Assembly: GCA_044892525.1 (NCBI GenBank)
Contig: CM097885.1
Span: 24,988,001 to 25,052,000 of the forward strand
DNA: 64,000 bases
Direction: 5' to 3'
Source: Schmidtea polychroa
Lineage: Eukaryota
The notes beneath the pieces are model-generated. The model was not told the origin of the DNA and did not search any database. It worked only from the letters and a program-made list of their open reading frames with translations. Positions 19,740 to 51,567 of the stretch are shown piece by piece (the stretch's first letter is position 1; every line of letters begins with the position of its first letter). A program made the position numbers and the translations under genes.

Positions 19740-20523
19740 ATTTTAAGATATTAAAATGATTCTCTTTCACCATTATATTGTATCCATTGAAACAATGACA
19801 TTATATACACGATAAGATAGAATGACAAAAAAAGACTTTATTAAGATATAATATTTACATATTTATGATAAGTCAAATTGTTAATTATCATATTGTTATA
19901 CATTGACCCTTGGGGGCTCTACGTAGATATCCACCCGGTACTTGTTCGATAATATTTTTTACGCTCTAAATTTTCGAAGTAGCGTCCCATAACATCCAAC
20001 AATATTTCATCATTTAGTTGAACACACACCCATAAAACCCCCAAGCTGTCCTAAGACTTGGCTGGGCTCAAAAATTATCCCCACAAACATTTCACGCGTA
20101 AAACTATTGTTAAAAATTACTAACAGCCACACTTTCAAGATAAATATTGAGTATGAAAAGTACATAGTTTAATTTTGGCTGCATTTACGTAAAATTAAAA
20201 TTGCTTTGTAGAGAATTAATTAAATGTTAATATTTTAATTTGTTAGCAAAAGGGTCCGCTTGTTCCTTTCAATTATTGATTTTAAAGTAAAATTTCAGTT
20301 AAATATTTTATTTATTATCGTAATAAAAATTTCTCAGAGAAAATAATTTAATTTCAACCTTTAATAATTACAATCGATTTATAAAATAATTTATTTACTA
20401 ATCACAAAATATAAAAATAAAATATTTCGATCATAAAATACAAGTAATTTCAACAACTAATTATACCTTTATTAAAAAATAAAATCTTTTCACATAATAC
20501 ATAAACAGTTTCATTTCAAACAT

Positions 20524-22534
20524 TTAATCAACTTCTTCAACTGTCGGACCTTGTTTCCCAGCACCTCCTTGTCCGCCAGCTGCACCCGGTGCACCACCTG
20601 GAAATCCCCCTGGAAATCCGCCCGGAAATCCTCCAGCACCAGCACCACCTGCCCCTTGATACATTTTAGTCATTATTGGATTACATATCTTCTCCAATTC
20701 TTTATAATGATAATCAAACTCATCCTTAGTCGCCTGTTGATTCTTTTCCAACCAATTTATCGCTTCTTGACATTTATCAATTATCAGTTTTCTATCTGAT
20801 TCAGAAATTTTATCTTTCAGTTTTTCATCTTCAACTGTTGATTTCATTTGGTATGAATAACTTTCCAATGAATTCTTTGCAGCTATTCTGTCTTTTTGTT
20901 CTTCGTCTTCCTTTTTGTATTTTTCAGCTTCATTAACCATGCGTTCAATATCATCCTTTGATAATCGTCCTTTATCATTGGTAATGGTAATTTTATTCTC
21001 TTTTCCTGTACCCTTTTCAACTGCAGACACATTCAAGATACCATTTGCATCAATATCAAAAGTAACTTCAATTTGCGGAACACCACGTGGAGCTGGTGGA
21101 ATTCCAGCCAATTCAAATTTACCAAGCAAATTATTGTCCTTTGTCATCGCTCGTTCTCCTTCATAAACTTGAATTAAAACTCCCGGTTGGTTATCAGAAT
21201 ATGTAGTAAATATTTGCGTTTGCTTTGTTGGAATAGTTGTATTTCGTTTAATTAAAGCTGTCATCACTCCACCGGCAGTTTCTATACCCAAGCTCAATGG
21301 AGCTACATCTAATAATAATAGATCTTGTACAGCTTCTGATTTATCTCCTGACAAAATTGCCGCTTGTACTGCTGCTCCGTACGCAACTGCCTCATCGGGA
21401 TTGATGGATTTGTTCAATTCTTTTCCGTTGAACAAGTCTTGTAGGAGCTTTTGAATTTTGGGTATTCTTGTTGATCCACCAACTAATACAATCTCATGAA
21501 TTGTATTTTTATCCAACTTAGCATCTCTCAATGCTTTCTCTACTGGCTCTAAAGTCGAACGGAACAAATCAGCATTCAATTCCTCAAACCTTGCTCTTGT
21601 AATTGAAGTGTAAAAGTCAATACCTTCATATAATGAATCTATTTCCAAATTTGCTTGTGCACTGGAACTCAAAGTTCTCTTTGCTCGCTCACAAGCTGTT
21701 CTCAATCTTCTAACTGCTCGCTTGTTATCACTAATATCTTTCTTATGCTTCCTCTTGAATTCTTGAATAAAATGATTTACCATCCGATTATCAAAATCTT
21801 CACCACCCAAATGAGTATCACCAGCAGTAGATTTCACTTCGAAAATACCATCTTCAATTGTTAAAATTGATACATCAAAAGTTCCTCCTCCTAAATCGAA
21901 TATTAACACATTGCGTTCAGCACCAACCTTTTTGTCTAATCCATAAGCTATAGCAGCAGCTGTTGGTTCATTAATTATTCTTAAAACATTTAATCCACTA
22001 ATTGCACCAGCATCTTTAGTTGCTTGTCTTTGACTATCATTGAAATAAGCTGGAACAGTTACAACAGCATCTTTAACTGTTTTACCCAAGTATGCTTCTG
22101 CAATCTCTTTCATTTTTATTAAAACCATCGATGAAATTTCTTCGGGGAAAAATGTTTTTGTTTCACCTTTGAATTCTACTCGAATTTTCGGTCTACCAGT
22201 TTCATTTATTACATCGAATGACCAGTGTTTCATGTCACTTTGAACTGACGATTCATCAAATTTTCGACCAATTAATCGCTTTGCATCTAGAACATTTTAA
22301 TTACTTTACTCTAATTCAGTATTAATTCTTACCGAAAACTGTATTATTAGGATTCATCGCCACTTGGTTTTTTGCAGCATCTCCAATCAATCGTTCGGTA
22401 TCTGTAAATGCAACATAACTAGGTGTTGTGCGGTTTCCTTGATCATTCGCAATAATTTCAACTTTTCCATGTTGAAATACACCAACGCATGAATATGTAG
22501 TACCCAAGTCAATACCAATAGCGTTACCAGACAT
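20524..22534 (-). CDS. hsp70: Cytosolic heat shock protein 70, 654 aa, two exons (22534-22333, 22286-20524)
   Basis: [40 protein letters not shown] repeats and C-terminal GPTVEEVD. A 46-bp GT-AG intron (22332-22287) restores VF/DAKRLIG. Confidence 0.97.
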
Positions 22535-22611
22535 TTGGAATTCTTCAAAAGTTATAACACAATATAATAATTTTATTCAAAATTTGCAAATATACACGTA
22601 ATGAACTGCAA

Positions 22612-22720
22612 ACACTTTATATAATTAAAATATAGAAATTCTAGAAAACAAATTTTAAAACAAACATAAATTCTAGAATTAGAATATTAACAAAACGAAT
22701 GATAGAAAGTTGTAGAAACA
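22612..22720 (-). promoter_or_regulatory. hsp70 promoter: TATA box and heat-shock elements
   Basis: TATATAAAG on minus at ~22615-22623; TTCtaGAA at 22639-22646 and 22671-22678; GAAagTTGtaGAA at ~22705-22717. Confidence 0.75.
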
Positions 22721-23225
22721 TATTTACTTTATAAATCATTTTATTTAATAAAGTTTTAATGGAAAATGAACATTTTTAATAGTTTAATTAATTTTAATAA
22801 AGTATTTGTCAAATTTTTAAACAATATTATATTATGTAAATATTACACAAACTGTAAATCAATGACCAAAATGTAATATGACAATTATTTAACTCTTACT
22901 TTGTCAGGAAAAAATATAAAATGACCATATCGGTCTTTTAAGTATAATTTTTGATTATCAATATATATATTTATTTATTACATTTTTATAATAAGAAAAT
23001 CTGCACAATAAACAGAAAGGTTGTAGATAAAATTCATTAATTTGTAGTATGAGTCAATTATGAAAAGTCGTAAACAAAAAATATAGTCAAGAGCATAAAA
23101 TGACACCAGAGATACAACATTCATAAAATGCTCTTTTGATCACAATACATCAAAGTTATAATTATGAATTGAATTATATATTTATTACACTTTTATAATA
23201 AAAAAATCTGCACAGTCAACATAAG

Positions 23226-23693
23226 CAGGGTTACCAACTCGACCATTTTCACCCAAAGACTTCGGGTCTTCGGGTTGAACACTTATGACTCGTTCCAGAC
23301 TTGGTAACCTTGTAATGCATTTATTGAAAGAATTTTTTCAATAATGAATTCCGTTTGGAGAGATGAAAGAAATAAAATGAGAACTTTTTATAAGAATAAA
23401 TTTCAACATGAAATGTGAAGATTTTCTTACATATTTAAAAGCACCAGAACAAAAAAATTTACTTGAATGTTCATTAAAAACAACAAAATATAATTTTAAG
23501 AATTAATTATATTTTCTGAAGTTCCTATTTTTTTAATGTTTTCTTTTTTAATAAATTTTGTTGTTTTATGTTTTATTGTTATTGAATCAATATATTTTGT
23601 TTTATATTCATATGTATATATTATATATTATTAAATCTTCGGATGTAAAAATAATTTCTTCGGGTCTGACTCGTTCCAGACTTGGTAACCCTG
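23226..23693. mobile_element. Non-autonomous hAT MITE (468 bp)
   Basis: TIRs CAGGGTTACCAA / TTGGTAACCCTG with 8-bp TSD AACATAAG; inserted in a local ~200-bp tandem duplication. Confidence 0.9.
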
Positions 23694-23883
23694 AACATAA
23701 GAGTTGTAGATAAAATTCATTAATTTGTAGTAAAAGTTAATTATGAAGTCTGAAAACAAAAGAATATAGTCAAGAGCATAAAATGACACCAGAGATACAA
23801 CTTTCTTAAAAATGTTCTTTTGATAACAATACATCAAAGTTATAATTTCCTCCATAACTATTCTTAATCATCTTGTTTACCAT

Positions 23884-24798
23884 TGTTGGGGTTCAACAAG
23901 AGAGGCACAAAAATGAGGTGAAAATTGGCAAAAACACCAAATTCAAAATAAAAATTTAAAGTACAAAATATTAATTAAAAATCAAAAATTTTAAAAAATG
24001 AATATTTTCTGGGGGAAACTGGTATGGGCGGATGCTGAATAATGAGACGAGTTCAGCTATAATAAAATAAAATCAATGGGGGGTCCCTAAAAGGAATAAA
24101 TTACAAAAAAACAAAAATTAATTAAAAAATTAATTAACTAATGGAAAACCCGAGCTAATGGGAAACCCGAGCTAATGGAGAATCCGAGCTAATGGGAAAC
24201 CCGATACAATGGAAAACCCGAGCGAATTGAGAAATCAAATTTTGGGAAGGCAATTAATTTAGCCGGAGAAATCCAATTTTGGGAAGGCAATTAATTTAGC
24301 CGGATAAAAAGTAATAAGCGCCGTCAAAGAAAATGAACAAATTCCCTTCAATTGAATTAGACCTCCAAGAGGAAGCCCGGGGGAAATAAGACCAAAAATA
24401 ATTGGCAAAAATAAAGTCAATTACCAAGCGAGTATAAAAGCAACTGGCAAGAAAACAAAATGCCAGTTGGTCGAAGAAAAGAAAATAGAAGTTTGAAGAG
24501 AGCGAAAAAGGAAATATTAAAGTTAGTAGAAATAAAACCATTTAAAAAAATCGAACGTACCAGAAAGGGACATCTCCCGTTGGAAGATCTACCCCTGCGT
24601 GAGATTTGGTAAGAAATTGAAAAGTGCAGACAAAACCTGATTGTATCAAGTGTGAGTAAACTAATACAAGTGTAAAAGTGTAACTGCATCAGTGTCAATA
24701 AAGATTTTGTGTTGGGTTATTTATTTATTCATTTATTTATTTGGAAAAGAACACAAAGGAGTCAGACCGTAGTACCGACTTGCATTAAAAACCCAACA
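23884..24798 (+). repeat. 5' LTR (915 bp)
   Basis: TGTTGGGGTT...AACCCAACA termini; TATAAAA at ~24433; AATAAA at ~24697; matches 40323-40892 and 55424-56339. Confidence 0.93.
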
Positions 24799-24802
24799 TA
24801 TT

Positions 24803-24820
24803 TGGTGAGCCCGACGTGAT
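24803..24820 (+). promoter_or_regulatory. Primer-binding site, tRNA-Trp
   Basis: TGGTGAGCCCGACGTGAT, a 17/18 match to the tRNA-Trp PBS TGGTGACCCCGACGTGAT. Confidence 0.9.
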
Positions 24821-25192
24821 CAAAAGTCGGTGAAAATTTGTTGAAATTGTGATAATATTTGAGTGATACCGAAGAATAAAAAGATCGGTGAAAATTTGTT
24901 GAGATTAGTAAAGTATCGGAAAAATTTGGAAAAAGATAATAATAATTAAATAAATAAATATTGAAGTGAAACGTTTATTTGAAAGTGGTGAACATTTATT
25001 TGAGAATTATTAAAGTGGTGATTTTATAATTGAAGCAAAGTGGAAAAATTTGTAACGATTGATTGTTGAAAAGTCAAAATTAAAACGAAAGGTAAATTTT
25101 GTAATTGTAACACTTTGAATTTTAGACGAGTAAAGCCTGTGTTGACCCGATCATTTTATAAATTGAGAAGCCAAAGACTAATAGAGAATTTA

Positions 25193-27025
25193 ATGAGTAC
25201 CCAAAGGCTAACCAATAATACAAATAACAATGATGAAACACCTGTGTCCACGGTGGGCAACGGCAAGGAAGGCAATGATTATGCGAGTTGTCAAAAACTA
25301 CCTGTGGATCAGTACGGTGGAGATCCGCTGGAATTTGTCGATTTTATGGCAGATTACTATATGTATGCGACGGCCTATGGATGGAGCCAATCGATAATGG
25401 TGCAAAGATTACCGCTATACCTGAAAGGAGCCGCCAGAGAAGCGTGGCAACAAATTGATAAAAGAATAGTAGCAAATGACTGGACCAAGTTGAAAGACGC
25501 GCTAGCCACGAAATTAATCGGAGGGGATATAAAACGGATCATGCGACAGAAATTCTATTACCGCGTACAAAAGCCAGAGGAATCAGTAAGTGAGTTTGCT
25601 TATCATTTATCAACTCTTGCAGAGAAAGCGTTCGAAGTGAAACCAGAACAGGCCGAGATGTCAAAGCAGGTAAAAGAATTACTGCAGGATCAATTCTTGT
25701 CAGGAGTAAAGAAAGAAATTAAAAAGGCTTTATGCTATGTTGATTTTAATGACTTTGATGAATTGATCAAAAAGGCAATGAAAATTGAGCTAAATTTAAA
25801 AAGCACACAGTCAAAATCAGAGTCGTTTGCAGTCATCTCAGGCGCAAGCGAAAGATCAGTAACCCCAATTAGAAACAATCGTTTTCAAGAAACAAGTAAT
25901 CCATCACCAAAATTTAGATCCAAATTTGAGTCGAACAAGGCAACAGATATTCAAATAGATGGAAAGGAAGGTCCCATCCAATGTAGTCATTGCCAAAGGA
26001 TTGGACACCATGTTAACCAATGCTGGTTTAAAAATAGAATACAGAGAAGCCCAATTCCGATTCAGTGTGATAATTGCCAAAGAATGGGACATGACAGCAA
26101 TCAATGCTGGTCCAAAAATAATGTACAACGGAGTCCAAGGCAAATGTGGCCTGATTGGTTAAAAGGAAATGGTGCGAAAAGTTCCACTAAAGCGAACATA
26201 AATGAGCAGAGAACTAATGATAACTTACAATGCTTTAATTGCGGAAGAAAAGGGCATGTGTCACGAAATTGTTTTGCCAGGTCAAGATCAAGATCAACAT
26301 CACCATCACCGCAGAGAGATAAAGTAAATCTACAAGGACAAATTCAATGTCATTCATGCAGAAGTTATGGACACATGGCTAGATCATGTCCAAGAAATAT
26401 GGATAAATTCCAAAGGCCCATATTAAAGAAATCGATTAGGTTTCAGAGTGACAAACCGCAGATGGATAATGTAGCTTTTATTCAGCCAGATAATTTTAAT
26501 GAAAGAATTGAAAGCGAAGTGAGAGAAATGGGTCGACGTTTGGATCGATTGATGTCAAAGTTTGAATCAGAAGAGGACTACAATAATCACATGATGTATG
26601 AGTCGCAAGAGGAATTGAATGAAAAAGAGTCGAAAAGGAGAGTTATAAAAGATGATTTAGAAAGTGAAAAAGCAACAATGATAATGACCAGAATCGAAAA
26701 ACTAATTGGAAATAATGAAATAGAGTCGGCTAAAGTGATCAAATCGTTGAGAGAATTAAGTCAAATATCTTTGAGTATGAGAAAGATAAAAAGTGTAATT
26801 AGCTTGTGCGTTAACTACTATAATATGAATCCAAAGTATAAAGAAGAAATTAAAGAATTAATGAAAATATTTGGAAAAGCTTTGAGAGAGAAAACAGGGT
26901 TAGATTCCATCTTGGTGGAAGTAGTAAACGAGATTGATAAAAGTGTATTATGTTGTCGTTGTGAGGCAAATGATTGTGTAAATGATTTAAAGAAGAAATT
27001 AAAAGAAAAAAGGAAAGATGCATGA
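25193..27025 (+). CDS. gag: Gag (capsid-like domain plus four CCHC zinc knuckles) and first helical module
   Basis: YLKGAAREAW, RVQKPEESVSEF and QFLSG capsid motifs; four CX2CX4HX4C knuckles; first ATG at 25193. Confidence 0.9.
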   Translation: MSTQRLTNNTNNNDETPVSTVGNGKEGNDYASCQKLPVDQYGGDPLEFVDFMADYYMYATAYGWSQSIMVQRLPLYLKGAAREAWQQIDKRIVANDWTKLKDALATKLIGGDIKRIMRQKFYYRVQKPEESVSEFAYHLSTLAEKAFEVKPEQAEMSKQVKELLQDQFLSGVKKEIKKALCYVDFNDFDELIKKAMKIELNLKSTQSKSESFAVISGASERSVTPIRNNRFQETSNPSPKFRSKFESNKATDIQIDGKEGPIQCSHCQRIGHHVNQCWFKNRIQRSPIPIQCDNCQRMGHDSNQCWSKNNVQRSPRQMWPDWLKGNGAKSSTKANINEQRTNDNLQCFNCGRKGHVSRNCFARSRSRSTSPSPQRDKVNLQGQIQCHSCRSYGHMARSCPRNMDKFQRPILKKSIRFQSDKPQMDNVAFIQPDNFNERIESEVREMGRRLDRLMSKFESEEDYNNHMMYESQEELNEKESKRRVIKDDLESEKATMIMTRIEKLIGNNEIESAKVIKSLRELSQISLSMRKIKSVISLCVNYYNMNPKYKEEIKELMKIFGKALREKTGLDSILVEVVNEIDKSVLCCRCEANDCVNDLKKKLKEKRKDA

Positions 27026-27414
27026 TAGAGTTGAGATTTAATGAGAGATTCTTAGAAAATGACGAATTTTTGATAGATTGTGGATTTATACCAGGGAGTA
27101 CAAATGAATTAAAAATGGAAAATGTAATTACTAGTGATGAAATAATGAGTAGTAAAATAATAGACAAAAGGAATTCAAGGGAGATATTAGAGGAATTAAA
27201 TGATGCGTTATATATTGGAGATGAAGATGAAATCAATGAGAAGTTACAGATTATTGAGAAATTAGAAATGGAGGAAAACGATAAACTAAAAATAGTGAAT
27301 GCAATACGACCATATTTACATGTGAAAACCAGATATGCCAAGTTATTAAGAAGTTTATTGCAAAGATTGGGCAAGGAGCTCAGAAAGGCAATTTTTGATA
27401 GCATTAGATTATGA
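27022..27414 (+). pseudogene. Frameshifted segment of the polyprotein (second helical module)
   Basis: The only segment out of frame with gag and pol. DEFLIDCGFIP resembles DEYLYDCGCVP in the next ORF. Confidence 0.65.
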
Positions 27415-30400
27415 GGGATATGGCAAAACGGAATATGTAGACGAGCATTGGTGTGCAAAGGTCCGAAAATTGCGGAAGAGAGCGGCTGAAACGCTGGGAA
27501 AAGATGGAATTATTATAGTAATGTACAAAAGTGAAGAAATTGACGATGATGAATACCTATATGATTGTGGGTGTGTACCACAAGAGCTGGATGAAAACGG
27601 ATATTTGATCCGAGACAGACGAGTGGGATATTTAGTGAACCATATAGTCGTAGTAAAAGGAGTGAGTTTAGAAGTAAATATTGAGTCTAACAAGCCTGAC
27701 ACAGAGGAACAAAATGAAAAAGTTAAGGGAAATAAAGAAATTGATGAAATCGTTAGTGATAATGAGCAAAAAGATCCTGATAACAAAGATCAGTCCACAG
27801 AACCAGACGTACAAGGAGAGCCACTTGTACCTGAAGGCGAAATAAATGGTGAAATCAAAAATAAGAAAGTTAGAACTTTATATGAAATAAAGAAATATTT
27901 AGTGAGGTTAGAACAGGACGTCGACGAAACTAAGAAAATGTTGAAACATCTCGTTAAAGCAGTATATCCAATGTTGGACATAGAAGTAGAGGTAGATGAT
28001 GAACTGAAAGAAATAGTTAAAGAGATGAAGAATAGGCTTCCTGAAGTGATGCAGAAATTTGGCGAAGAGAATACATTTTGCGAGAGATCAGTAATTGAAA
28101 ATTTGGCAAAAAATGAAATTAATAAGGAAGTTATAATAATAGTTTTAATTTATGTTGTTTTAGAAATTGGAACCCATACGTTCGCAAGGTCAGACAAGTT
28201 AGAAAATTTGATAGACATCGCTGCCCGGCTAGTAAACGAATATTTAATGAGCTGGGTAAACGAAAAAGGTGGTTGGAAAACACTGTGTTCATCTCTAACA
28301 GAAAAGAAAAATGAGAAGCAAGAAATGAGTCCACCCCAAAGACGAGTAAATGAAAGAGTTAAGCCAGAACTAAGAAAAACTATGATATTTCCATGGGCGA
28401 TGTTTATGGTGATTACGTTTTGTGCAATAATTACACAAACATCATCTTTAGTTGCGTACGATTGTTCCCAAACTGAAATGGGAAAAGTTTATTCGGTAGT
28501 AGATATGTCGGAGTGCCCAGGTGCGTATCCGAGCAGTTTAAAAATAGAAAATGACGTAAAATATTATGTGTATCAAGAGTCTGATCTGCGAAGAACTCAA
28601 GTGAGAGAGTGTATTGTCAAACATACAACATTTGTATTCTATTGTGGTAAATGGAGCCATACGTCACTCATAAAAATGCATGCGATACCTAGGCCAGTCG
28701 AGGTGCTTCCAGAAAACTGTCTAGCAGCATTTCAAACAGGAGAATTAAAAATAAGTCCAGAAATTCGTTTAAAGGCAAAATTGAACCATAGAATACGAGA
28801 AACAATAATTGTAAAGGGAGTTATGAAAGCAAATGGCGACTGTGAAGGTGAACCATATAAAATGAACGGTAAAATTATTCAGCAAACAGTAGTGCTAGAA
28901 GAATATCTCACGAAGTTGAGAGAGTTCGAAGGAGCTTTCGATGATGATACGGGAAAATTACAAACTCATCCATTCTGTAATATGAAACAAACACATTGTC
29001 AAACAGGGGAATCGATTCTTGTTTATAATGTAGAAACAAATAAGTGTAATTTAACGCACTTAAAAACTATGAACTTTAAAGAGCTAGTAGGAGAACAGTT
29101 TAGAGATAAACCAGATAATTTCAATATGAATTATAGACCAAATAATACCATTAAATCAACCCCAGTATGGACAAAGCAAATGGGAACAGTTTTAATGTCT
29201 ACGTTACCAGCAGATGGAATGCGATTTATAAAAAAGGAAATCACAAATAAATGTGGTCGAATGGTATATGTAACAAATTATAAAGGTGTTTACGTGTCTA
29301 GAAATGTTGTGGAAGAAGCAAAAATTAAAATTCACAGAGATGACATTAAACTTACTCATTATTTTAATAATAAAATTGATTATTTGTTTCATTTTAGTCA
29401 AAACATCATGGAAAATGTATATAGAGAAATGATTCTGAACGATTGTAAGTTGAATAAAGAGATTCTCCGAAATCGGATGGCGATGACAATTACGAATCCA
29501 AATTTAGTAGCACCTATGCTAATATCAGAAAATGGAGTGTTTGCGAGAATATTTGGAGAAGCATTATACAGTTACAAATGCAAAGAAGTCACAGTGAAAA
29601 TTGCCAAATACGAAAAATGTACGAACGAATTACCAGTAAGCTTTGGGGGAAAGGTACGATTTATGGAACCGATAACTAGAATCTTGCTTGATGAACAAAC
29701 TAAACCAAAACTTTTGCAATGCAATCGATTATTAGCCCCTTTATACCGATTAGCTACAGACTCATGGATAGCCTTATCAGATTATCGTGGGGTCAAGACT
29801 CCAGACAAACTAGAATTAACAAATTTAGAATACCTGATAAATTTCACATCACTAAACAAAATGGCACAAATGGGCTTGTATGCAAGCGAAGATATCGAAG
29901 AAGCTCAAAGGAATTTGTTGTTTCCATCCAAAAAGGAACGGATAATTTCAGAAATGATTGACACAGTATTACCGAATGGAGAAGGAACAGTAAATTACGA
30001 AAATTTGCTAACACCTGATCATTTCAAACGAGCTACATATAAAAAGATGGAAAAGATTTGGGGCAAGTTCATGTTTTTGGGACAAGCATGTGCAGGTTTA
30101 GTTGGAATTTACGTGATTATGATAACGGCAAAGATGGTAGTGTCGCAAATGTTGTCAGTACATCGAATATACGTAATATCGGGATGGTCATGGAAATTAG
30201 TTATTGGTTGTATTCCATTGTTGGCTAGATTCTTTATTACAGATCATCAATTTAAAGAAATGGCAAGAGTAAGGGCACAATTAAGAAATGGCCGGAAAAG
30301 TGAGGAATCTACGTGTCAGTCGGAAGATAAAAACGACGATCATAATGATGATAACAACAACGGGGAATCGGAGTATAAATGCTTTCGAAAAAGTGTAATA

Positions 30401-32656
30401 AAGAGTAAAGTAGAGCCAGAGTCCAGGTTCTTGCTTGAACCAATGCCAAAATTAAGCGGGATTGATACTCTTAGTAGATGGTATACCCCGACATTTAGAC
30501 CAACAGGACCAGTATATCCAAGTGAAAAACTAAAGGAGATGAAAGCGGTCGATAATATCACAATAGAATTAGAGAAGATTGAACCAACGAGTGCTGAAAT
30601 TGAAAGAAAGAATATGCTTGGTCTACCATGCAGCTATGCACTAATGATAACAGTAGTAGGAGGAAAACAACCTCGAATAAACATACAGTTTAACAAGAGA
30701 AAAGTGGAAGCTTTATTAGACTCAGGCTCAAGTCATACTATAGTAGCGGAAAGTTTCTTGACGTATCAGGAGAAAGTCAAAATAAAACCAACGAATCACA
30801 TTATTAAATCAATGTCACATAATGCACTAAATATTGTTGGAAAATTAGAAGTTAAACTGATAATTGGAGATCAAGAAATAATTCATTGGGTATCAGTGAT
30901 GAGAAAAAGTCCTGTAAAATGTCTTATTGGCATGGATGTCATGGAGCAACTACATGGAATCTCTCTTGATCTGAGAACTGGAAAACTAATAAAAGGACAA
31001 ATAGGTGAAGTAGTGCCTGAAGTAGGAGAGGTATTTCTAAACCAAACATTGGAAGTACCACCAAAAAGCGAAATAATATACTATGCAGATGTTATGAGGG
31101 TCTCAGATGAGGAGTACATATTTGAGCCAAATCAAAAGCTGGTTGAAAAATACGATGTGCCTATGTGTGATGAAGTAGTGAAAGTCCAAAATAAGTCAGT
31201 ACCAGTTAGAATAGCGAATTATAGTGCAAGATCCGTTGAGATAAAGCCCAAAACCAAATTGGGAAAATTAACAAAAATCAAATCAGAGGAAGCTCAGAAG
31301 TTACCGAGAAATATAAAAATTTATAAAGAACCTCAGATCACAAGCAAAGATTTGACGGATTTGCAAAAACAAGAATTCGGTGCATTATTAAAGAAATATA
31401 GAAATGTATTTGCAAAACATGAGTATGATCTGGGACTCACTCAGGTGATTGAGCATGAAATACCATTACTCAACGAAACCCCAATAAAATTACGGCCGTA
31501 CAGAATACCATACATACATCAGGAAGAAAGTGATCGGCAAATCAAAGCAATGAAAGAATTCAATATAATAAGAGATAGTTCCTCACCATTCTCATCATCA
31601 ATAGTAGTAGTTAAAAAGAAGGACGGTGATTTAAGATTTTGTGTCGACTATCGAAAATTGAACCAAGTTACGAGAAAAGATACATATCCTATTCCTGTTC
31701 CACAGGAAATGTTCGATCAGATGGGGGAGGTGCAATATTTTACGGTAATAGATCTTAATAAAGGATACAATCAATTTAAAGTCAAAGAGAAAGATAGAAG
31801 GAAAACTGCATTTTCAGATGGGAAGGGTCTATATGAGTTTAACGTGTTACCATTCGGATTAACAGGAGCGCCTGCTACATTTCAGAGAGGTATGAATTTC
31901 GTTTTGCGCGATATACCACATGCATTAGTGTATATTGACGATATAATAATATTTTCGAATAGTTTTCAGGAACATTTGCAGGATGTGGAAACAGTATTCA
32001 AGCGATTGTTAGAAGCAAACTTAAAAATAAAACTCTCCAAATGTGAATGGGGAAAATCTGAAGTAGTTTATGTGGGTCATATCATTTCGCGTCGAGGTTT
32101 GCAACCAAATCCAGAAAATATAGAGAAAATTAAGAAATATCCTATTCCCAAGGATGTAGATCAGGTTCGGCAATTTCTGGGATTAGCTAGTTATTACAGA
32201 AAGTTTATTAAAAGTTTTTCACATGTCGCACAACCTTTGAACATGTTATTGAAAAAGCAAGCAAAATTTAAATGGACAACAGCTCAGCAAGAAGCGTTTG
32301 ATAAACTCAAAGAAAGCTTAATAAAACAGCCGATATTAAGATGTCCGAACTTTAAAAAACTGTTTATATTAATGACAGATGCCAGTAATTTCGCATTAGG
32401 CGCGGTATTAGGACAGCAAGTAGAAGGGGAAAAAGATCATGTAATTGCTTATGCCAGCAGATCATTGAAACCTCATGAAAAAAATTATTCGACAATCGAA
32501 AAAGAAACGTTAGCATTGGTATATGGGATAACCACTTTTCGACAATACCTAGTGGGCAGAAAATTTGTTGTCTTTACGGATCACAATCCGTTACAATGGC
32601 TAATGAAGCACAGAGATTCGGCCAGTAAATTAATTAGGTGGTCAATTGCGTTATAA
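27395..32656 (+). CDS. pol: Polyprotein segment: Bcl-2-like domain, chuvirus-like glycoprotein, aspartic protease, RT, RNase H (ends in a premature stop)
   Basis: WVNEKGGW (BH2-like); LVAYDC...YCGKWSH...CTNELPV; LLDSGS; RFCVDYRKLN, LPFGL, YIDD; TDASNFALGAVL, TDHNPL. TAA interrupts WSIAL*EYDF. Confidence 0.9.
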   Translation: MIALDYEGYGKTEYVDEHWCAKVRKLRKRAAETLGKDGIIIVMYKSEEIDDDEYLYDCGCVPQELDENGYLIRDRRVGYLVNHIVVVKGVSLEVNIESNKPDTEEQNEKVKGNKEIDEIVSDNEQKDPDNKDQSTEPDVQGEPLVPEGEINGEIKNKKVRTLYEIKKYLVRLEQDVDETKKMLKHLVKAVYPMLDIEVEVDDELKEIVKEMKNRLPEVMQKFGEENTFCERSVIENLAKNEINKEVIIIVLIYVVLEIGTHTFARSDKLENLIDIAARLVNEYLMSWVNEKGGWKTLCSSLTEKKNEKQEMSPPQRRVNERVKPELRKTMIFPWAMFMVITFCAIITQTSSLVAYDCSQTEMGKVYSVVDMSECPGAYPSSLKIENDVKYYVYQESDLRRTQVRECIVKHTTFVFYCGKWSHTSLIKMHAIPRPVEVLPENCLAAFQTGELKISPEIRLKAKLNHRIRETIIVKGVMKANGDCEGEPYKMNGKIIQQTVVLEEYLTKLREFEGAFDDDTGKLQTHPFCNMKQTHCQTGESILVYNVETNKCNLTHLKTMNFKELVGEQFRDKPDNFNMNYRPNNTIKSTPVWTKQMGTVLMSTLPADGMRFIKKEITNKCGRMVYVTNYKGVYVSRNVVEEAKIKIHRDDIKLTHYFNNKIDYLFHFSQNIMENVYREMILNDCKLNKEILRNRMAMTITNPNLVAPMLISENGVFARIFGEALYSYKCKEVTVKIAKYEKCTNELPVSFGGKVRFMEPITRILLDEQTKPKLLQCNRLLAPLYRLATDSWIALSDYRGVKTPDKLELTNLEYLINFTSLNKMAQMGLYASEDIEEAQRNLLFPSKKERIISEMIDTVLPNGEGTVNYENLLTPDHFKRATYKKMEKIWGKFMFLGQACAGLVGIYVIMITAKMVVSQMLSVHRIYVISGWSWKLVIGCIPLLARFFITDHQFKEMARVRAQLRNGRKSEESTCQSEDKNDDHNDDNNNGESEYKCFRKSVIKSKVEPESRFLLEPMPKLSGIDTLSRWYTPTFRPTGPVYPSEKLKEMKAVDNITIELEKIEPTSAEIERKNMLGLPCSYALMITVVGGKQPRINIQFNKRKVEALLDSGSSHTIVAESFLTYQEKVKIKPTNHIIKSMSHNALNIVGKLEVKLIIGDQEIIHWVSVMRKSPVKCLIGMDVMEQLHGISLDLRTGKLIKGQIGEVVPEVGEVFLNQTLEVPPKSEIIYYADVMRVSDEEYIFEPNQKLVEKYDVPMCDEVVKVQNKSVPVRIANYSARSVEIKPKTKLGKLTKIKSEEAQKLPRNIKIYKEPQITSKDLTDLQKQEFGALLKKYRNVFAKHEYDLGLTQVIEHEIPLLNETPIKLRPYRIPYIHQEESDRQIKAMKEFNIIRDSSSPFSSSIVVVKKKDGDLRFCVDYRKLNQVTRKDTYPIPVPQEMFDQMGEVQYFTVIDLNKGYNQFKVKEKDRRKTAFSDGKGLYEFNVLPFGLTGAPATFQRGMNFVLRDIPHALVYIDDIIIFSNSFQEHLQDVETVFKRLLEANLKIKLSKCEWGKSEVVYVGHIISRRGLQPNPENIEKIKKYPIPKDVDQVRQFLGLASYYRKFIKSFSHVAQPLNMLLKKQAKFKWTTAQQEAFDKLKESLIKQPILRCPNFKKLFILMTDASNFALGAVLGQQVEGEKDHVIAYASRSLKPHEKNYSTIEKETLALVYGITTFRQYLVGRKFVVFTDHNPLQWLMKHRDSASKLIRWSIAL

Positions 32657-35362
32657 GAATATGATTTCGAGATAAAATATCGTACAGGAAAGTCAAATGC
32701 AAATGCGGATGCTATGTCGAGAATACCCGTAGAAAATAATGTTGATCAAGAGGAAAATAATTGCGAAAATACAATATTCATGGAAATTAAAACGGTAAAT
32801 AATATAGAAAAATTACAAGATGATCAGGAAAATGACGAGGAATTAAATCAGTTACGTCAACATGCTGTCTCAATCAAAAAGGAGAGTGACTGGAAACATA
32901 TTGTCGAAGAGAACCATAAATACATTATTCATGATGGTTTGTTAAAATGTGTACAAAATGAAAATTTGTTAATTATTGTTCCGACAAAACATCGAAAATA
33001 ATTACTGTTGTTGTATCACGATGGAGGATTAGGAGGGCATTTATCAGCGCGAAAAACATTATCAAGATTGAAACAGAAATATTATTGGAAAACGATGGAA
33101 CAAGATGTCAGACAATGGTGTCATACGTGTGAGATATGCCTAACAAGACGAAATACGGGACGGAAAATAAAAGTTCCGCTTAAGCCTATGCCAGTGCCAA
33201 AGGCGCCAATGGAAATGACAGCAATGGACATCGTTGGTCCATTGCCGGAAACAACAAATGGCAAAAAATACATTATTGTTTTTTGCGACTATCTTACTAA
33301 ATGGCCAGAAGCTTATGCAATGCCAAATCAGAAAGCAGAAACAGTTGCGAAAATATTTGTGGAGAATATTATTTTTCGATACGGAGCACCAAAGAAATTA
33401 CTTACAGATCAAGGAACAAATTTTCAGAGTGAATTATTTAAATCAATCACAGATTTATTTGGTATATTGAAACTTAGTACCTCACCATATCATCCACAAA
33501 CAGATGGTCTAGTTGAAAGATTTAATGGGACACTAATTAATATGATATCATCCTATGTAAATAGGAAACAAAAGGATTGGGATTTATTCATTAAACCATG
33601 CTTATTTGCATACCGGAATGCAGTAAATGAAAGCACTGGAGAAACACCCTTTTATCTCATGTATTTACGACGAAACAATATGCCAGTCGATCTAGAATTT
33701 CAGTCACCTATTTCCCAATATATGGATGTGTCAGATTATAAAATAGCTATGCATGAAAGACTACAGTCAGTATGGATCCAAGCTGGACTTAACATAAGGC
33801 ATCATCAAGAAGCGTATAAAGAATGCTATGATAAACGCGCACGGGTACATGACATTAAAATTGGAGATCTCGTGTATATAAACAAACCAGAACCAACAAA
33901 AGGCTTGTCAAAGAAATTGCAACGACCGTTTAAAGGACCATATCTAGTGTGTGATACGACAGAGACTAACTTAAAATTGCGTCCACAAAACAATAAAAAG
34001 GCTGGGACAATCATCGTTCATGTAAATAGATGCAAGAAGATAATAGGAGAAGATGAATCACGTTATCCATTGAGATCAAAACAAAATAAAGATGCAGGGA
34101 ACCCAGTAATTAAACAAAAGTTTACAAAAAACCCTGCTCCATTGAGTTACATCAATAAAGTTTTATTGATTACAACAGTAATGATTATCAATATAATGTC
34201 AGTAAATGCAGTGAGAGTATTCCCGTTATATGCAACTAATACAGTTGTATTATTAGACAAAGTTCATATTTATTCAACATGTACTCAAATAGTTTGGGTT
34301 TATTATGCTGGAGGAGCAGAAGAAATAGAGATAAATAATCTAATAAACTATTTTGAACCCCCAATAAAATTGAACAGCACCAAAAATATTTATGTGGCTA
34401 GACAATTAACAATGAATTATGAATACCCTTGGGTAATTACGCAATTGGATTCGAAAAGTAATAATACAAAAATACAAAATCTTATACGGATTAATATTTG
34501 GACAAAGAGATTACATAATCGAGTATCAATTGAACCACTGGTAAATGGAATTGACATATATTGGGAACCCCAGGAATCCCAGCAAGTAAAAGCAGTTTTT
34601 CAAAATTATGCGATAGATACATTGAATAGCAGAAAACCCTTTATAAAGTATGCAAATTTAAAATTACATCATAACTATAATATTCTGATTCATTATTATG
34701 AAAAATCTTTATATGAAAACGGAACTGAAATTGATAGCCAATGGATCAGAATACACTCTAGTCAACATATGATACGATTAGTTAATGAAACAAACCGGGT
34801 TACTTTTCATATTTTCAATCAATTAGTGAATGTTACCCGACAAGCGGAGCCCAATCAAAAAGCTATTTTATATTATTATGGAAAAATTCAATCGATATTA
34901 AATGAAAAAAATAAATCTCAAATATTAACTTTTCGTCAACGTTCACCAATATCGACGTCAAAATTTGTGTTCATTAAAATAAAATACTATAGACGTTCTC
35001 TATTTTCAAATTTATGGCAATTAACTTTAGTAGAAAATAAAATTGTGCAAATTCCATCTATCAACTCACAGTATGGAAATCGAAACAAATCAAATCAGTC
35101 CAACCGAACCCCTAGCTCTGCCAACGTAATCATCTTTTCTAGCATCAATGAGTCAATGACTAATAACGAAACCATATCGTCATTAAAAACGGACAGTGAA
35201 ATTGTGTGTGCAACATTATTAATAACTACTCTCATTATAACAATCTCTCTCATTATTCTCATTATCATTGTGTTAATTGAATTTCGAACAATACCCAAAC
35301 CTTCTACGAATCGATCCGAGATTGCGAGACCTTGGGTCGTTTATGAAGAAACATTTGTGTAG
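32657..35362 (+). CDS. RNase H end, integrase (HHCC, DDE core, GPY) and fused C-terminal type-I membrane protein; one internal stop at 32999-33001
   Basis: YHDGGLGGH...CHTCEIC, MDIVGP, TDQGTNF, YHPQTDGLVER, PFKGPY. Then hydrophobic VLLITTVMIINIMSVNA, an Asn-rich ectodomain and the TM segment IVCATLLITTLIITISLIILIIIVLI. Confidence 0.88.
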
Positions 35363-35790
35363 TAAGACATAAATACTTTGCATGCAAAAATTGATAAAGT
35401 AGTAGTAGTAATATAGTATAAATATTTTATGGATATTATTAGTATTTTATTTCATTATGGATATGATCAATATTTCATTTTATTTTACTTGTGAATCTGC
35501 ACTTTTCAATGTCAACGGAAAGAATCAATTTGATTGGTTAGCGCTGTGTTAAGGGGGAGAGAAAAACGGGGTTAAGGGAATTTTCACAAGGGTATTAAAA
35601 GAGGGTAAAATCCATTAAACTCCATTAATTTTGAGGAAAAAAATATATATCAACAATTAACTAAACGGTAATTATTATTATTTATTTATACAGCTAGTAG
35701 CTGGGACAGTATCCTTCGGATACTTCATCTCAGCCCTAGTTTTAAAAGTAAAGTAAATTCAAACGTTAAATTATAACTATTTTAGCAAAA

Positions 35791-37260
35791 ATGGAACAAG
35801 TACAATGGACAAGATCCACCTACGACAGTTACTTCAAGATGCAGAAAAATCATGCCAGCCAACAATTATACGAAATCAATGAAAATTTACAAATTCCAAA
35901 TTATTTGCTGATAGATGACAGAAGAATGAAGATACGAATGTTTACAATAAGGAGAAATTCAGAATTGAAATTGACAGATGAAATTGAGTTGTCTCGGAAG
36001 GAAGAATATCACATACACGTGATCAGAGGTACAGTGGAAGTGCTGAAGAACGATAATACAATATGGTGGCAACTTCGAAAATTCACATCGTGGAAGCTGC
36101 AGAAGGACTTCATGTGGAGAACACTACGAGCAGCGAATGAGGAGACAACGTTGGTGGTGGAAATCAGAATTGAGAATGAAGCAGATGAAGTACCACAGAT
36201 GCATCTAATTGAAGGAGAAGACCCAATGTTATTGAAAATTTCAAAGGAAATGTTGAAAAAGAAAATGTCGTTTCTCAGAAAAGAAATGGATCTAGAAGAA
36301 ATCCGCAGTCGAATATTATTCATTGATGCTGAATATGGCACATCAGAGCAAGGGAAAATGGTCCCTTTAGCAATAGCAATTATGAATTATTATGGGAAAG
36401 TAGTAAAAGATGTATACCTCACTCCAAGAGGAAAAATCCGACATTTTAATTCAAGGATCCATGGAATTACAGAAGTGGCCAGCAGGAACCAATGTGATCA
36501 ATATGTGGCAATGAAAGAGATACAACGCTTGACAGTAGGCAAGATATTGATCGGCCATGATTTGCATGCAGAATTACAATACTTGGGGATATGGATTGAA
36601 CAATTGTACGGCATTCGAGATCTAGCAGCAGCACCAATACTTCAGAACATGGGAGTAACCATAAGGGGAGAATGGTTCAAACTACAAACAGTGGTGAAAG
36701 AAATATGTGGAGAACAGACTCAGATGAGTATTCATTCGGCTCTCGAGGACGTGAAAAGTATACGCAAGGTATACCAGAAAGTGGAAAGTCAATGGATTGA
36801 TGACATACCGATGCCCAAAAATCAACCGTCAAAGCGATATTCGTGGGATGAATATAAGAAGCTTCGGGAAATTGAATCAACATCAACTGCAATACTAGAA
36901 AAACTAACGCAAATTCCAATTGAAGATGTAATGGAATCTGAAGAAATTGATTTAACATTCGAGGAGAATGTGACGATGGATAGTGAAAATCCATTGATTC
37001 AATTGAAGTGGGCCAATGAATCATTCTTAGAAATTGCGGAAGAATGTGTCGCATTAATGGTAAGCATTCCGATGATAAGGATACATCCAACACTTGAATA
37101 TGGTCCAATGCCAGAATGTAGAAAATCCAAAAAGAGAAAAACAACTTCGAACATTGATGTCGGAGACACTGTCACTGTCAATGGTGTTGTATATGAACGC
37201 GAAGAAACAATAATACGATATCGGCATGAAACGAAACGATTAGAAATAAAGATGGATTAA
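35791..37260 (+). CDS. DEDDh (DnaQ-like; REX4/ISG20-type) 3'-5' exonuclease with an unknown N-terminal domain, inside the retroelement
   Basis: FIDAEYG (ExoI), IHGIT, ILIGHDLHAEL (ExoII), IRDLA, HSALED (ExoIII); intact 489-aa ORF between IN and PPT. Confidence 0.85.
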   Translation: MEQVQWTRSTYDSYFKMQKNHASQQLYEINENLQIPNYLLIDDRRMKIRMFTIRRNSELKLTDEIELSRKEEYHIHVIRGTVEVLKNDNTIWWQLRKFTSWKLQKDFMWRTLRAANEETTLVVEIRIENEADEVPQMHLIEGEDPMLLKISKEMLKKKMSFLRKEMDLEEIRSRILFIDAEYGTSEQGKMVPLAIAIMNYYGKVVKDVYLTPRGKIRHFNSRIHGITEVASRNQCDQYVAMKEIQRLTVGKILIGHDLHAELQYLGIWIEQLYGIRDLAAAPILQNMGVTIRGEWFKLQTVVKEICGEQTQMSIHSALEDVKSIRKVYQKVESQWIDDIPMPKNQPSKRYSWDEYKKLREIESTSTAILEKLTQIPIEDVMESEEIDLTFEENVTMDSENPLIQLKWANESFLEIAEECVALMVSIPMIRIHPTLEYGPMPECRKSKKRKTTSNIDVGDTVTVNGVVYEREETIIRYRHETKRLEIKMD

Positions 37261-37800
37261 TTTTTATATATTGTATTTATAAAATAAATAATTGTGAACT
37301 CGATTTTGTCTCATGTATTTATTGGCAGCGCATCAGTTAGACCCCAAAATAAGAATAAATAAGTAAATAATTGAGAGTAAATAAATGATTAAATAAATAA
37401 ATAAACTTATTATTGTGTATAACAACAAACACATTTCCAATTGTCGGGGTTTGGCTACCCTGGACAACAATTGGAAATGTGTGGTTGTCATAGTCATTGA
37501 TTTTTCCATTGAAACCGTTTATGAATAAATGGAACTATATTTTTATCTAAATCTATATTTGTTTCTAAGTTTCTCTATGGATCTCGGTGTCTCTATATAT
37601 ATTTATTCTACTTTATCCCCATGATGATTATAATAATTACTTTCTCACATTAAATCATTTACCGTTGCAAATAGCATAAACATTTCATTAAACAATGAAA
37701 ATTAAAAATCTGTTAATTAAAAAAATTAATTAAACAGTAATTCAAAGAAAATTTTCAACGCTAACATCATTCAATTAGCCAAAACAATAATTTCACTTAC

Positions 37801-37901
37801 TTTTTATAAGCCTTTTTCAAATCATCTCCTGACGTTTCTTTATCGACACCTAATATCTCATAAAAATCCTTCAATTCACTATTGAAAGTTAAATTTATCA
37901 T
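37801..37901 (-). pseudogene. Isolated first exon of a DnaJ/Hsp40 J-domain gene, inside the retroelement in antisense
   Basis: Reads MINLTFNSELKDFYEILGVDKETSGDDLKKAYKK, followed by a GTAAGT donor. No HPD exon recognised downstream. Confidence 0.75.
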
Positions 37902-39828: not shown

Positions 39829-39831
39829 TTT

Positions 39832-39923
<92 letters not shown>

Positions 39924-39950
39924 TATTATTATTATTATTATTATTGTTAT
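39829..39950. repeat. (ATT)n microsatellite
   Basis: Directly visible. Confidence 0.95.
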
Positions 39951-40308
39951 TATCCTTATTATTGTGGTCATTAGGAATTATTATCAGTATTAGTATTATC
40001 ATTATTATGATTGTTATCGGTGGGAATTATTTTTATTATCGGTAGTGTTATTATCGTCATTATTATTGTTATTAGTATTAACATTATTATTTATATTAAG
40101 TAGTGTGAGGATGATGGGGGAGTCGAATAAGGAAATTTCAAAATAAAATAGCGCAGATTTAAAATCATTGGCAAAGGCAATAGCTAAAATAGGTAGATAG
40201 CAATCCATTTTTATTATTACTATTGTTGTGATTATTGTTATTATTGTTATTACTGTATGGTAAATTAGATTTATTATATACATGCAGATTCGAGGTCGAA
40301 TCTAAATT

Positions 40309-40320
40309 AAAGGGGGGAGA
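40309..40320 (+). promoter_or_regulatory. Polypurine tract
   Basis: AAAGGGGGGAGA 2 nt before the 3' LTR, preceded by the palindrome AGATTCGAGGTCGAATCT. Confidence 0.9.
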
Positions 40321-40322
40321 TA

Positions 40323-40892
40323 TGTTGGGGTTCAACAAGAGAGGCACAAAAATGAGGTGAAAATTGACAAAAACACCAAATTCAAAATAAAAATTTAAAG
40401 TACAAAATATTAATTAAAAATCAAAAATTTTAAAAAATGAAAATTTTCTGGGGGAAACTGGTATGGGCGGATGCTGAATAATGAGACGAGTTCAGCTATA
40501 ATAAAATAAAATCAATGGGGGGTCCCAAAAAGGAATAAATTACAAAAAACAAAAATTAATTAAAAATTAATTAACTAATGGAAAACCCGAGCTAATGGGA
40601 AACCCGAGCTAATGGAGAACCCGAGCTAATGGGAAACCCGATACAATGGAAAACCCGAGCGAATTGAGAAATCCAATTTCGGGAAGGCAATTAATTTAGC
40701 TTGATAAAAAGTAATAAGCGCCGTCAAAGAAAATGAACAAATTCCCTTCAATTGAATTAGACCTCCAAGAGGAAACCCGGGGGGAAATAGGGCCAAAGAT
40801 AATTGGCAAAAATAAAGTCAATTATTAAACGAGTATAAAAGCAACTGGCAAGAAAACAAAATGCCAGTTGGTCGAAGAAAAGAAAATAGAAG
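40323..40892 (+). repeat. 3' LTR, truncated after ~570 bp
   Basis: Matches 23884-24491 with one repeat unit missing and several substitutions. Homology stops at GAAAATAGAAG. Confidence 0.92.
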
Positions 40893-51338: not shown

Positions 51339-51567
51339 GCCATGCTTTGCTCTAACAAATCAGTTTATTGAGCAAATCAATATATTGAACAAATCAATAT
51401 ATTACCAAAAACAATATATATTGAATACTGCTTTGAAATTCTATAAGTATTGAATATTGTTTTGAAATTCAATATGAAAAATTGGCTATTTTGAATATTG
51501 TTTTGAAATTCATCATATTGTATTGTTTTGAATGTCAATATGGTCGATATGCAAATGCTTATTACAA

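What the first reader, a model, noticed from the sequence alone, without database searches (positions are those of the whole stretch)
28382..30245. Chuvirus-like fusion glycoprotein positioned between gag and protease, in frame with pol
Seen: a signal peptide, LVAYDC...C...Q...C...FYCGKWSH, CKEVTV...CTNELPV...FMEPITRIL...C, and a C-terminal TM region, running without a stop into LLDSGS. Known: this Cys pattern resembles chuvirus (Jingchuvirales) glycoproteins, which have been found captured by BEL/Pao elements in insects; env normally lies 3' of integrase. Inference: an independent env capture by a Gypsy lineage, with a topology like an RNA-virus polyprotein (cytosolic Gag, luminal G, cytosolic Pol) that would need signal peptidase plus the element protease.
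Basis: partly seen in the sequence, partly recalled or inferred. Interest (0 to 1): 0.82.

Follow-up and report, generated by a model that had tools for sequence, protein, structure and literature searches.

The report
Flatworm retroelement with two envelope proteins
This is a damaged copy of a recently multiplied flatworm retrovirus-like element whose viral-type fusion protein sits between its capsid and enzyme genes in one reading frame, a layout already published, but the same frame also ends in a second membrane protein with predicted fibronectin-like domains that may help its particles attach to cells.

Summary
Observation confirmed. 28382-30245 encodes a signal peptide, a Monjiviricetes/chuvirus-type fusion glycoprotein (PF24664, E 3e-84) and one membrane anchor, in frame with protease-RT-RNaseH. 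It belongs to a 17-kb Ty3/gypsy LTR element; the window copy is broken, but 19 of 79 scored genomic copies keep one 3437-codon frame: Gag, ubiquitin-like, Bcl-2-like, G, Pol. LTRs differ by 0-2 bases, G is under purifying selection. The layout is not new: planarian Burro elements (2019) and GAG-ENV-POL errantiviruses (2026) are described with it, and the G tree favours old inheritance over a fresh capture. Not found in the texts searched: after integrase the frame carries a second signal peptide, three predicted FN3-like domains, a membrane anchor and a PDZ-type end, kept in all three host families examined; a second ORF resembles ISG20 exonuclease. Likely mechanism: one polyprotein crossing the ER membrane four times, cut by signal peptidase and the element protease, Pol staying cytosolic. 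The FN3 protein is a candidate attachment partner for G; that role is untested.

The parts
23884..24798 (+). 5' LTR, TG...CA, 915 bp
   Evidence: matches both LTRs of other copies
24803..24820 (+). Primer-binding site, 18 of 18 bases complementary to the 3' end (with CCA) of the host tRNA-Trp
25193..26389 (+). Gag: capsid (Retrotrans_gag E 4.5e-7 in a sister copy) and four CCHC zinc knuckles
26915..27571 (+). Two ubiquitin-like domains (approximate; weak Pfam, E 0.003 family A, 5e-5 with two stretches family B); this copy has two frameshifts here
28004..28276 (+). Bcl-2-like domain (weak, below Pfam cut-off: E 0.008 here, 0.003 sister copy, 0.015 family B, 0.001 in relative P0008)
28382..28447 (+). 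Internal signal peptide 1: basic stretch before, hydrophobic core, predicted cut before LVAYDC
   Evidence: cut site inferred from small residues at -3/-1
28448..30085 (+). Ectodomain of the Monjiviricetes/gB-type fusion glycoprotein; 11 invariant columns in a 95-row alignment, 7 of them Cys
30086..30142 (+). Membrane anchor of G (mean hydropathy 2.15 over 19 columns in 17 embedded relatives)
30185..30241 (+). Second, weaker apolar segment (1.2 over 19 columns; conserved Lys and Arg ten residues apart); predicted to lie on the membrane surface rather than cross it
30665..30955 (+). Aspartyl protease, LLDSGS at 30713
31610..32653 (+). Reverse transcriptase (YIDD) and RNase H, Ty3/gypsy type; in-frame stops at 32654 and 32999 in this copy
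33002..34050 (+). Integrase: H2C2 finger, DDE core, C-terminal part
34160..34210 (+). Internal signal peptide 2 after integrase (predicted)
34211..35068 (+). Three predicted all-beta FN3-like domains
35201..35362 (+). Strong membrane anchor (hydropathy 3.2), short tail ending ETFV-stop (class I PDZ-type end, motif recalled)
35791..37260 (+). ORF2, 489 aa, with an ISG20/ISG20L2-like DEDDh exonuclease core at 36307-36807
   Evidence: E 6.3e-11; second acidic site is Glu instead of Asp
40308..40320 (+). Polypurine tract
40323..40892 (+). 3' LTR, cut off at 40892 by unrelated sequence; 556 of 569 aligned bases identical to the 5' LTR

Best explanation
This is the envelope region of a recently multiplied, Burro-related Ty3/gypsy element of a planarian whose unbroken copies encode Gag, ubiquitin-like and Bcl-2-like domains, a gB/chuvirus-type fusion protein, Pol and a second membrane protein in one reading frame, which is likely made as a single polyprotein that crosses the ER membrane four times. 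Shown: the domain order, the single frame, LTRs, tRNA-Trp primer site, target-site duplications, purifying selection on G and on the second protein. Inferred: Gag and its accessory domains stay cytosolic; signal 1 opens translocation and is cut by signal peptidase; G folds in the lumen and stops at its anchor; the weak second apolar segment stays on the cytosolic surface, so protease, RT, RNase H and integrase are cytosolic and are freed by the element protease; signal 2 reopens translocation for the three FN3-like domains, which end in an anchor and a PDZ-type tail. Gag would stay tethered by the stump of signal 1 beside G and bud into secretory membranes; G would fuse the particle with another cell. 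Most speculative step: the FN3-like protein serves as attachment or sorting partner of G. ORF2 is likely expressed separately and may trim element RNA.
For: PF24664 E 2.7e-84. 19 of 79 scored copies have a 3437-codon stop-free frame; 10 such copies fetched (chosen for that frame) all show both signals, DSG, YIDD, DDE and the ETFV end. 7 of the 10 have both LTRs in the stretch fetched, with 0-2 mismatches in about 865 bases; 4-bp target duplications in 6 of 7, and in the seventh after an extra LTR piece. All 150 scored protease matches are 96-100% identical. G against family C: dN 0.107, dS 2.6; pN/pS 0.10 among 9 copies; second ectodomain dN 0.31, dS 1.1, pN/pS 0.18. Four strong hydrophobic segments in the same order in families A, B and C, basic residues on the predicted cytosolic sides. 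FN3: language-model neighbours 0.89 and 0.93; AlphaFold2 three beta domains; Foldseek best hit fibronectin FN10-12, E 1.7e-8; VIA-align Z 8.2, rmsd 2.7 A over 75 residues to a Dscam FN3. 3 of 4 distant relatives with a complete integrase end also have a signal-like segment and a later hydrophobic segment behind it. 23 of 29 other copies keep env collinear with protease, the other 6 break at different places. Same Gag-SUMO-like-BCL2-Env-PR order in Burro (PMC6431247).
Against: Topology rests on hydropathy and charge, not on SignalP/DeepTMHMM or experiment; the Bcl-2-like core helix is also hydrophobic (1.8-2.25) and would flip the parity if it inserted. No protein, particle or fusion data. One frame gives Gag, G and Pol 1:1:1, and no route to excess Gag was found. 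The FN3 model is weak: mean pLDDT 56.5, first domain under 50, TM-score 0.27, atlas recognition below its threshold, no Pfam fn3 hit in 5 of 5 tails, no PDB sequence hit, single-sequence model failed. Tails of distant relatives show no detectable sequence homology to the planarian tail and one relative (P0002) has a protease there instead. Glycosylation sites are enriched over shuffles in tails A (10 vs 5.1, p 0.018) and C (8 vs 4.2, p 0.04) but not B (4 vs 3.7) nor in G itself. G matches herpes gB by sequence only at E 0.4-2.4; I did not fold G.
Confidence: 0.7

Rival explanations
1. The polyprotein is as described, but the post-integrase FN3-like protein is not a particle attachment protein: it is a captured host-type receptor that stays on the producing cell, acting as decoy, superinfection block or signal modulator, alongside the Bcl-2-like and exonuclease domains.
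For: Its nearest folds are host surface receptors (CD45, cytokine receptors, Dscam); PDZ-type end in all three families; tails vary freely between distant lineages; Burro carries several host-modulating domains.
Against: It is made in step with G from the same frame and has the same type I topology; retained under purifying selection in three families; the slot is filled by a signal-bearing protein in 3 of 4 distant relatives.
Confidence: 0.4
2. The single frame is not translated whole: spliced or truncated RNAs make Gag, Gag-Pol and the membrane proteins separately, as for env in insect gypsy.
For: It would solve the Gag stoichiometry problem; ORF2 needs a separate route anyway and has an AG after an AT-rich tract upstream (by eye).
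Against: The frame is kept open over 3,300-3,400 codons in families A, B and C; family B has no Met at the start of signal 1; no recurrent env-skipping junction among 29 genomic copies.
Confidence: 0.15
3. The glycoprotein was captured recently and independently from a chuvirus by this planarian lineage.
For: A named chuvirus glycoprotein falls in the 25-row group next to the embedded clade (support 95); PMC13524379 finds GAG-ENV-POL elements not monophyletic in its POL tree.
Against: Nearest relatives at 36-43% identity are all polyprotein-embedded, stand-alone ones reach only 22-29%; embedded rows form one clade (99); G and RT trees share (A,B,C), (P0002,P0006), (P0017,P0020) and differ only on P0009/P0012; PMC13524379 argues for ancient env-pol co-divergence. 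My tree is FastTree, midpoint-rooted, hosts unnamed, so it cannot give a donor.
Confidence: 0.12
4. G ends in a helical hairpin (two membrane passes), which would put Pol in the lumen and require a separate route for Pol.
For: A second apolar segment follows the anchor in nearly all relatives shown.
Against: It holds only about ten apolar residues between a conserved Lys and Arg/Lys (19-column hydropathy 1.2 against 2.15), it is present in stand-alone viral relatives too, and signal 2 has basic residues on its upstream side as expected if integrase is cytosolic.
Confidence: 0.07

Closest known systems
Burro / GYPSM1 giant Gypsy elements of planarians (PMC6431247, section 7 read whole, figure not seen; Grohme 2018 not held)
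   Same: [quoted passage not shown]
   Different: 16-17 kb with 0.9-kb LTRs and a 3,396-residue protein against over 30 kb and 4,873 residues; no MATH, BIR or ankyrin found by Pfam; a post-integrase membrane protein and an exonuclease ORF are not mentioned in that section.
GAG-ENV-POL HSV/gB-type errantiviruses, Smed_errantivirus_1 to 6 (PMC13524379; abstract, part of section 5 and of the Discussion, passages, supplement rows)
   Same: Ty3/gypsy POL, gB-type env between gag and pol, multi-copy in Schmidtea. By eye on the printed 251-residue Env fragments the window G is about 197/251 identical to Smed_errantivirus_1, and family B of this genome 247/251 to Smed_errantivirus_2.
   Different: The window family itself matches none of the six fragments closely. 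The main text has no occurrence of 'polyprotein', 'Bcl-2', 'exonuclease' or 'splic'.
Anakin BEL/Pao elements of mosquitoes (PMC7642597 passages; PMC10084718 passages)
   Same: Same glycoprotein family carried by an LTR element.
   Different: BEL/Pao backbone; here the RT is Ty3-like, no Pao-specific Pfam domains were hit, and G lies before Pol.
Atlas virus of hookworm (PMC9094657 passages)
   Same: A single Gag-Pol-Env polyprotein with two glycoproteins, GN (receptor binding in phleboviruses) and GC (fusion).
   Different: Belpaovirus, class II fusogen, both glycoproteins at the C-terminus; here the two membrane proteins flank Pol and are unrelated to GN/GC.
ISG20 / ISG20L2 DEDDh exonucleases
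   Same: ORF2 core aligns over 167 residues, E 6e-11.
   Different: One acidic site is Glu; long unrelated flanks; absent from family B. DEDDy exonucleases are reported for rotifer Terminons and, from recall, rotifer LTR elements.

Membership tests
Ty3/gypsy LTR retrotransposon (Metaviridae) | Two LTRs with TG...CA ends, PBS, PPT, 4-6 bp target duplication | tested here: met
   the window's own 3' LTR is truncated, so its duplication cannot be read
Ty3/gypsy LTR retrotransposon (Metaviridae) | Order PR-RT-RH-IN and Ty3-type RT | tested here: met
   best PDB relative Ty3 RT E 2.4e-85
Ty3/gypsy LTR retrotransposon (Metaviridae) | Placement in an RT tree with reference Gypsy and BEL/Pao elements | not tested
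   no reference RT set in the script box; only a 9-row tree of relatives
GAG-ENV-POL gB-type errantivirus (PMC13524379, operational term) | gB/chuvirus-type env between gag and pol, flanked by signal and membrane anchor | tested here: met
   about 78% identity by eye to Smed_errantivirus_1 Env fragment
Class III fusogen | Five-domain gB/G fold, trimer, fusion loops | tested here: inconclusive
   Pfam family met; PDB gB hits only at E 0.4-2.4; G not folded here; the paper's model is of Smed_errantivirus_3
Class III fusogen | Membrane fusion activity | not testable with these tools
   needs a cell assay
Burro | Gag-ubiquitin-like-BCL2-Env-PR order in one frame | tested here: met
   (both accessory domains weak, below Pfam cut-off)
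Burro | Giant size (over 30 kb, about 5-kb LTRs from the size difference), MATH/BIR/ankyrin domains | tested here: not met
   16.2-17.2 kb, LTR 0.85-0.92 kb; no such Pfam hits. Works like Burro, not filed as Burro
Burro | dUTPase-like domain between PR and RT | tested here: inconclusive
   a 100-residue insert is there but Pfam gives no dUTPase hit
BEL/Pao (Anakin) | Pao-type RT and Pao-specific domains, env after integrase | tested here: not met
   P0069 shows what an Anakin-like protein gives (DUF5641 + G)
Fibronectin type III protein (post-integrase domain) | Seven-strand FN3 sandwich | tested here: inconclusive
   fold searches and atlas point to FN3 but model pLDDT 56.5, Z about 8, no Pfam fn3
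DEDDh exonuclease (ORF2) | D-E-D-D acidic set plus His | tested here: inconclusive
   fold family matched; third acidic residue is Glu in families A and C; activity untested

The most novel reading that the evidence does not exclude
These gag-env-pol elements are enveloped viruses with a two-component entry machine encoded in one four-pass polyprotein: a class III fusogen before Pol and a captured FN3-type attachment protein after integrase, whose slot is refilled with different ectodomains in different lineages. That would supply the missing receptor-binding partner for gB-type retroelement envelopes and explain their spread between cells, and possibly between planarian species.
Probability: 0.3. 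Interest if true: 0.8.

Novelty: new variant of a known kind. Interest (0 to 1): 0.48.

Why it matters
What adds value: PMC13524379 states that how gB-type retroelement envelopes enter cells without herpes gD/gH/gL is unknown. A conserved second surface protein in the same frame gives a concrete, testable candidate, in a laboratory animal group where Gypsy elements can be de-repressed by smedwi-2 RNAi (PMC8532177 passages). The element also shows an LTR retrotransposon using an RNA-virus-like multi-pass polyprotein.

Tried and rejected
Expression and splicing: no RNA holder listed on record. Logan contigs of six runs (five guessed RNA, one of unknown kind) were laid; none of the joints shown was a GT..AG skip, but 63 and 2 joints were not shown, and contigs cannot show absence. 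Contigs of run X5 cover the LTR and 26.1-28.8 kb but not 28.8-35.4 kb; an A-rich tract near 27.0 kb could explain this, so it is not used as evidence. Homologue search for the post-integrase protein among 211-674-residue proteins: none of 2023 candidates. Single-sequence AlphaFold2 of it failed (pLDDT 33). Profile comparisons with the tails of P0009 and P0006: no match. PDB sequence searches for tail and G: nothing significant. A search of the genome with a distant relative to find giant Burro copies returned only families A and B. Literature: searches for FN3 with retrotransposon terms and for Schmidtea/Burro with Bcl-2 or exonuclease found no description of the post-integrase protein; Sacco 2022, Grohme 2018 and Repbase entries could not be read and may describe it. 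No earlier scan findings. No complex prediction was run. Rows dropped: copy L033 left out of the within-family codon count (local frame shift); glycoprotein hits covering under 80% of G left out of the tree (120 rows kept).

Full report
Observation. The stretch 28382-30245 lies in a stop-free frame 27350-32656. It holds a basic stretch, a hydrophobic core and LVAYDC, the cysteine motifs quoted, a membrane anchor, and runs on to LLDSGS at 30713, YIDD and RNase H. Pfam gives Monjiviricetes_fusion at E 2.7e-84, with protease, RT and RNase H behind it and a weak Bcl-2 match before it.

The element. LTRs lie at 23884-24798 and from 40323 (cut off at 40892); an 18-base primer site matches the host tRNA-Trp; a polypurine tract precedes the 3' LTR. 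This copy is broken by two frameshifts near 27.0 and 27.4 kb and stops at 32654 and 32999, and its LTRs differ at 13 of 569 aligned bases. In the genome, all 79 scored G matches are 98-100% identical and 19 lie in a 3437-codon stop-free frame; all 150 scored protease matches are 96-100% identical; both counts are lower bounds. Ten copies chosen for that frame all carry it plus a 496-codon second frame. Seven have both LTRs within the fetched stretch: 16.2-17.2 kb, 0-2 mismatches between LTRs, 4-bp target duplications. The family has therefore spread very recently. The protein order is capsid, four zinc knuckles, two ubiquitin-like domains, Bcl-2-like, signal 1, G, anchor, protease, RT, RNase H, integrase, signal 2, ectodomain, anchor. 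The RT is closest to Ty3 among solved structures. Two sister families exist: B (3334 codons, 58% identical overall, no second ORF in the 8 stretches fetched) and C (83% in G, has ORF2, 3419-codon frame in 2 of 135 scored matches).

Selection. Against family C, G shows dN 0.107 and dS 2.6; against B it is 69% identical, above the protease (59%). Among nine unbroken copies G has 13.5 synonymous and 5.5 non-synonymous variants (pN/pS 0.10; these copies were chosen for open frames). The post-integrase ectodomain shows dN 0.31, dS 1.1 against C and pN/pS 0.18; ORF2 core 69% identity to C at saturated silent sites. All are being maintained.

Topology. Families A, B and C show the same four strong segments (recalled hydropathy scales). 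After the G anchor comes a second apolar segment, but across 17 embedded relatives it averages 1.2 against 2.15 for the anchor and has a conserved Lys and Arg/Lys ten residues apart, so it likely does not cross. That leaves Pol cytosolic, which also fits signal 2 having basic residues upstream. The Met at 28382 is missing in family B, so signal 1 is internal. Glycosylation sites are enriched in tails A and C but not B, and G itself has only two, so this support is partial. The Bcl-2-like core helix is hydrophobic and is assumed to be buried. Among 29 other copies selected by the protease, 23 keep env collinear and 6 break at different places; no splice joint was seen in contigs, which cannot show absence.

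Origin of G. An exhaustive search gave 1439 relatives. Those at 36-43% identity over the full length are G-protease(-RT-RH-IN) polyproteins or fragments of them, one with a Bcl-2 match before G; stand-alone 650-residue proteins, one a named chuvirus glycoprotein, reach 22-29%. In a 120-row FastTree all 16 embedded rows sit in one 18-row clade (support 99) whose other two rows are fragments; nine-row G and RT trees share three groups and differ on two rows. This favours an old env-pol partnership over a fresh capture; the tree gives no donor.

What is known. PMC6431247 (section 7 read) describes planarian Burro as one frame with Gag, SUMO-like, BCL2-like, mononegavirus-like Env, PR, RT, RH, IN, and calls it the first env in frame between gag and pol. 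PMC13524379 (abstract, passages, parts of two sections, supplement rows) reports GAG-ENV-POL gB-type Ty3/gypsy elements in flatworms, nematodes and bryozoans, six in Schmidtea mediterranea. By eye the window G matches its Smed_errantivirus_1 fragment at about 197 of 251 residues and family B matches Smed_errantivirus_2 at 247 of 251, which places the host among planarians of or near Schmidtea; I did not determine the species. PMC7642597 and PMC10084718 (passages) cover the BEL/Pao Anakin case; PMC9094657 (passages) the single-frame Atlas virus.

What is added. Behind integrase, all three families carry a signal, an ectodomain of about 300 residues, an anchor and an end in ETFV, ETRL or ETWV (PDZ class I pattern recalled). 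Two independent members point to FN3 in the language-model atlas (0.89, 0.93; lead-level). AlphaFold2 on an 11-row alignment gives three beta domains (mean pLDDT 56.5); Foldseek ranks three-FN3 fragments of fibronectin first (E 1.7e-8, TM 0.27), VIA-align gives Z 8.2 and rmsd 2.7 A over 75 residues for the middle domain, viral models give FN3 proteins too. Pfam and PDB sequence searches do not confirm it. Of four distant relatives with a complete integrase end, three have a signal-like and a later hydrophobic segment there, without detectable homology to the planarian tail, and one has a further protease. ORF2 resembles ISG20L2/ISG20.

Mechanism. Most likely one polyprotein with four membrane passes, cut by signal peptidase at two sites and by the element protease on the cytosolic side, giving membrane-tethered Gag, a class III fusogen, free Pol and a second surface protein (0.7 for this scheme). 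Whether the second protein is an attachment partner on particles (about 0.3-0.35) or a host-directed decoy (about 0.4) is open; how excess Gag is made is unexplained.

Verdict. Real, well supported, largely known; the second membrane protein makes it a new variant worth following. Interest 0.48.

Noticed in passing
window 20024-25311 and 51564-56852: A 5.3-kb segmental duplication (99.6% identical) carries an hsp70 exon on the minus strand together with the element's 5' LTR and the start of gag; both copies have the same left flank, so the duplication followed the insertion.
   Followed up: partly
L051-L064, L069-L070 (family B): Env fragment 247 of 251 identical by eye to the published Smed_errantivirus_2, while the window family is only about 78% like its nearest published one. 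If the host is a congener rather than S. mediterranea, this would suggest recent horizontal spread of family B; species not determined.
   Followed up: no
L031-L032: One copy has the exonuclease ORF region three times in tandem (frames of 496, 496 and 500 codons at 12325, 14928, 17518).
   Followed up: no
L113 (G000:C4 about 55.02-55.05 Mb and beyond): Tandem array of tRNA-Trp genes at a 284-bp period; 852 pattern matches, all on one strand. This is the element's primer tRNA.
   Followed up: no
P0001, P0002, P0003, P0005, P0006, P0007, P0015: Distant gag-env-pol relatives carry several aspartyl-protease domains in a row, in P0002 and P0006 one of them after integrase.
   Followed up: no
P0017: After integrase and a long Ser/Arg-rich linker it has a signal and a Cys-rich ectodomain unlike the FN3-like tail, then a further hydrophobic segment.
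   Followed up: no
window 37261-40307: About 3 kb of non-coding, AT-rich sequence between ORF2 and the 3' LTR; 37608-39580 does not align to the sister copy compared, and element length varies here.
   Followed up: no
window 35680-35693: AT-rich tract ending in ACAG about 100 bases before the ORF2 ATG with no ATG between; possible splice acceptor, not conserved as such in family C.
   Followed up: partly
window 45483-47447, 58749-59678, 555-1964, 14479-16809: hAT-type transposase, Tc1/mariner-type transposase, end of a non-LTR element (zf-RVT), and a 776-codon minus-strand frame with no Pfam match that looks transposase-like by eye.
   Followed up: no
window 40893 onward: The 3' LTR is interrupted by unrelated repeat sequence that resembles other repeats of the window.
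   Followed up: no
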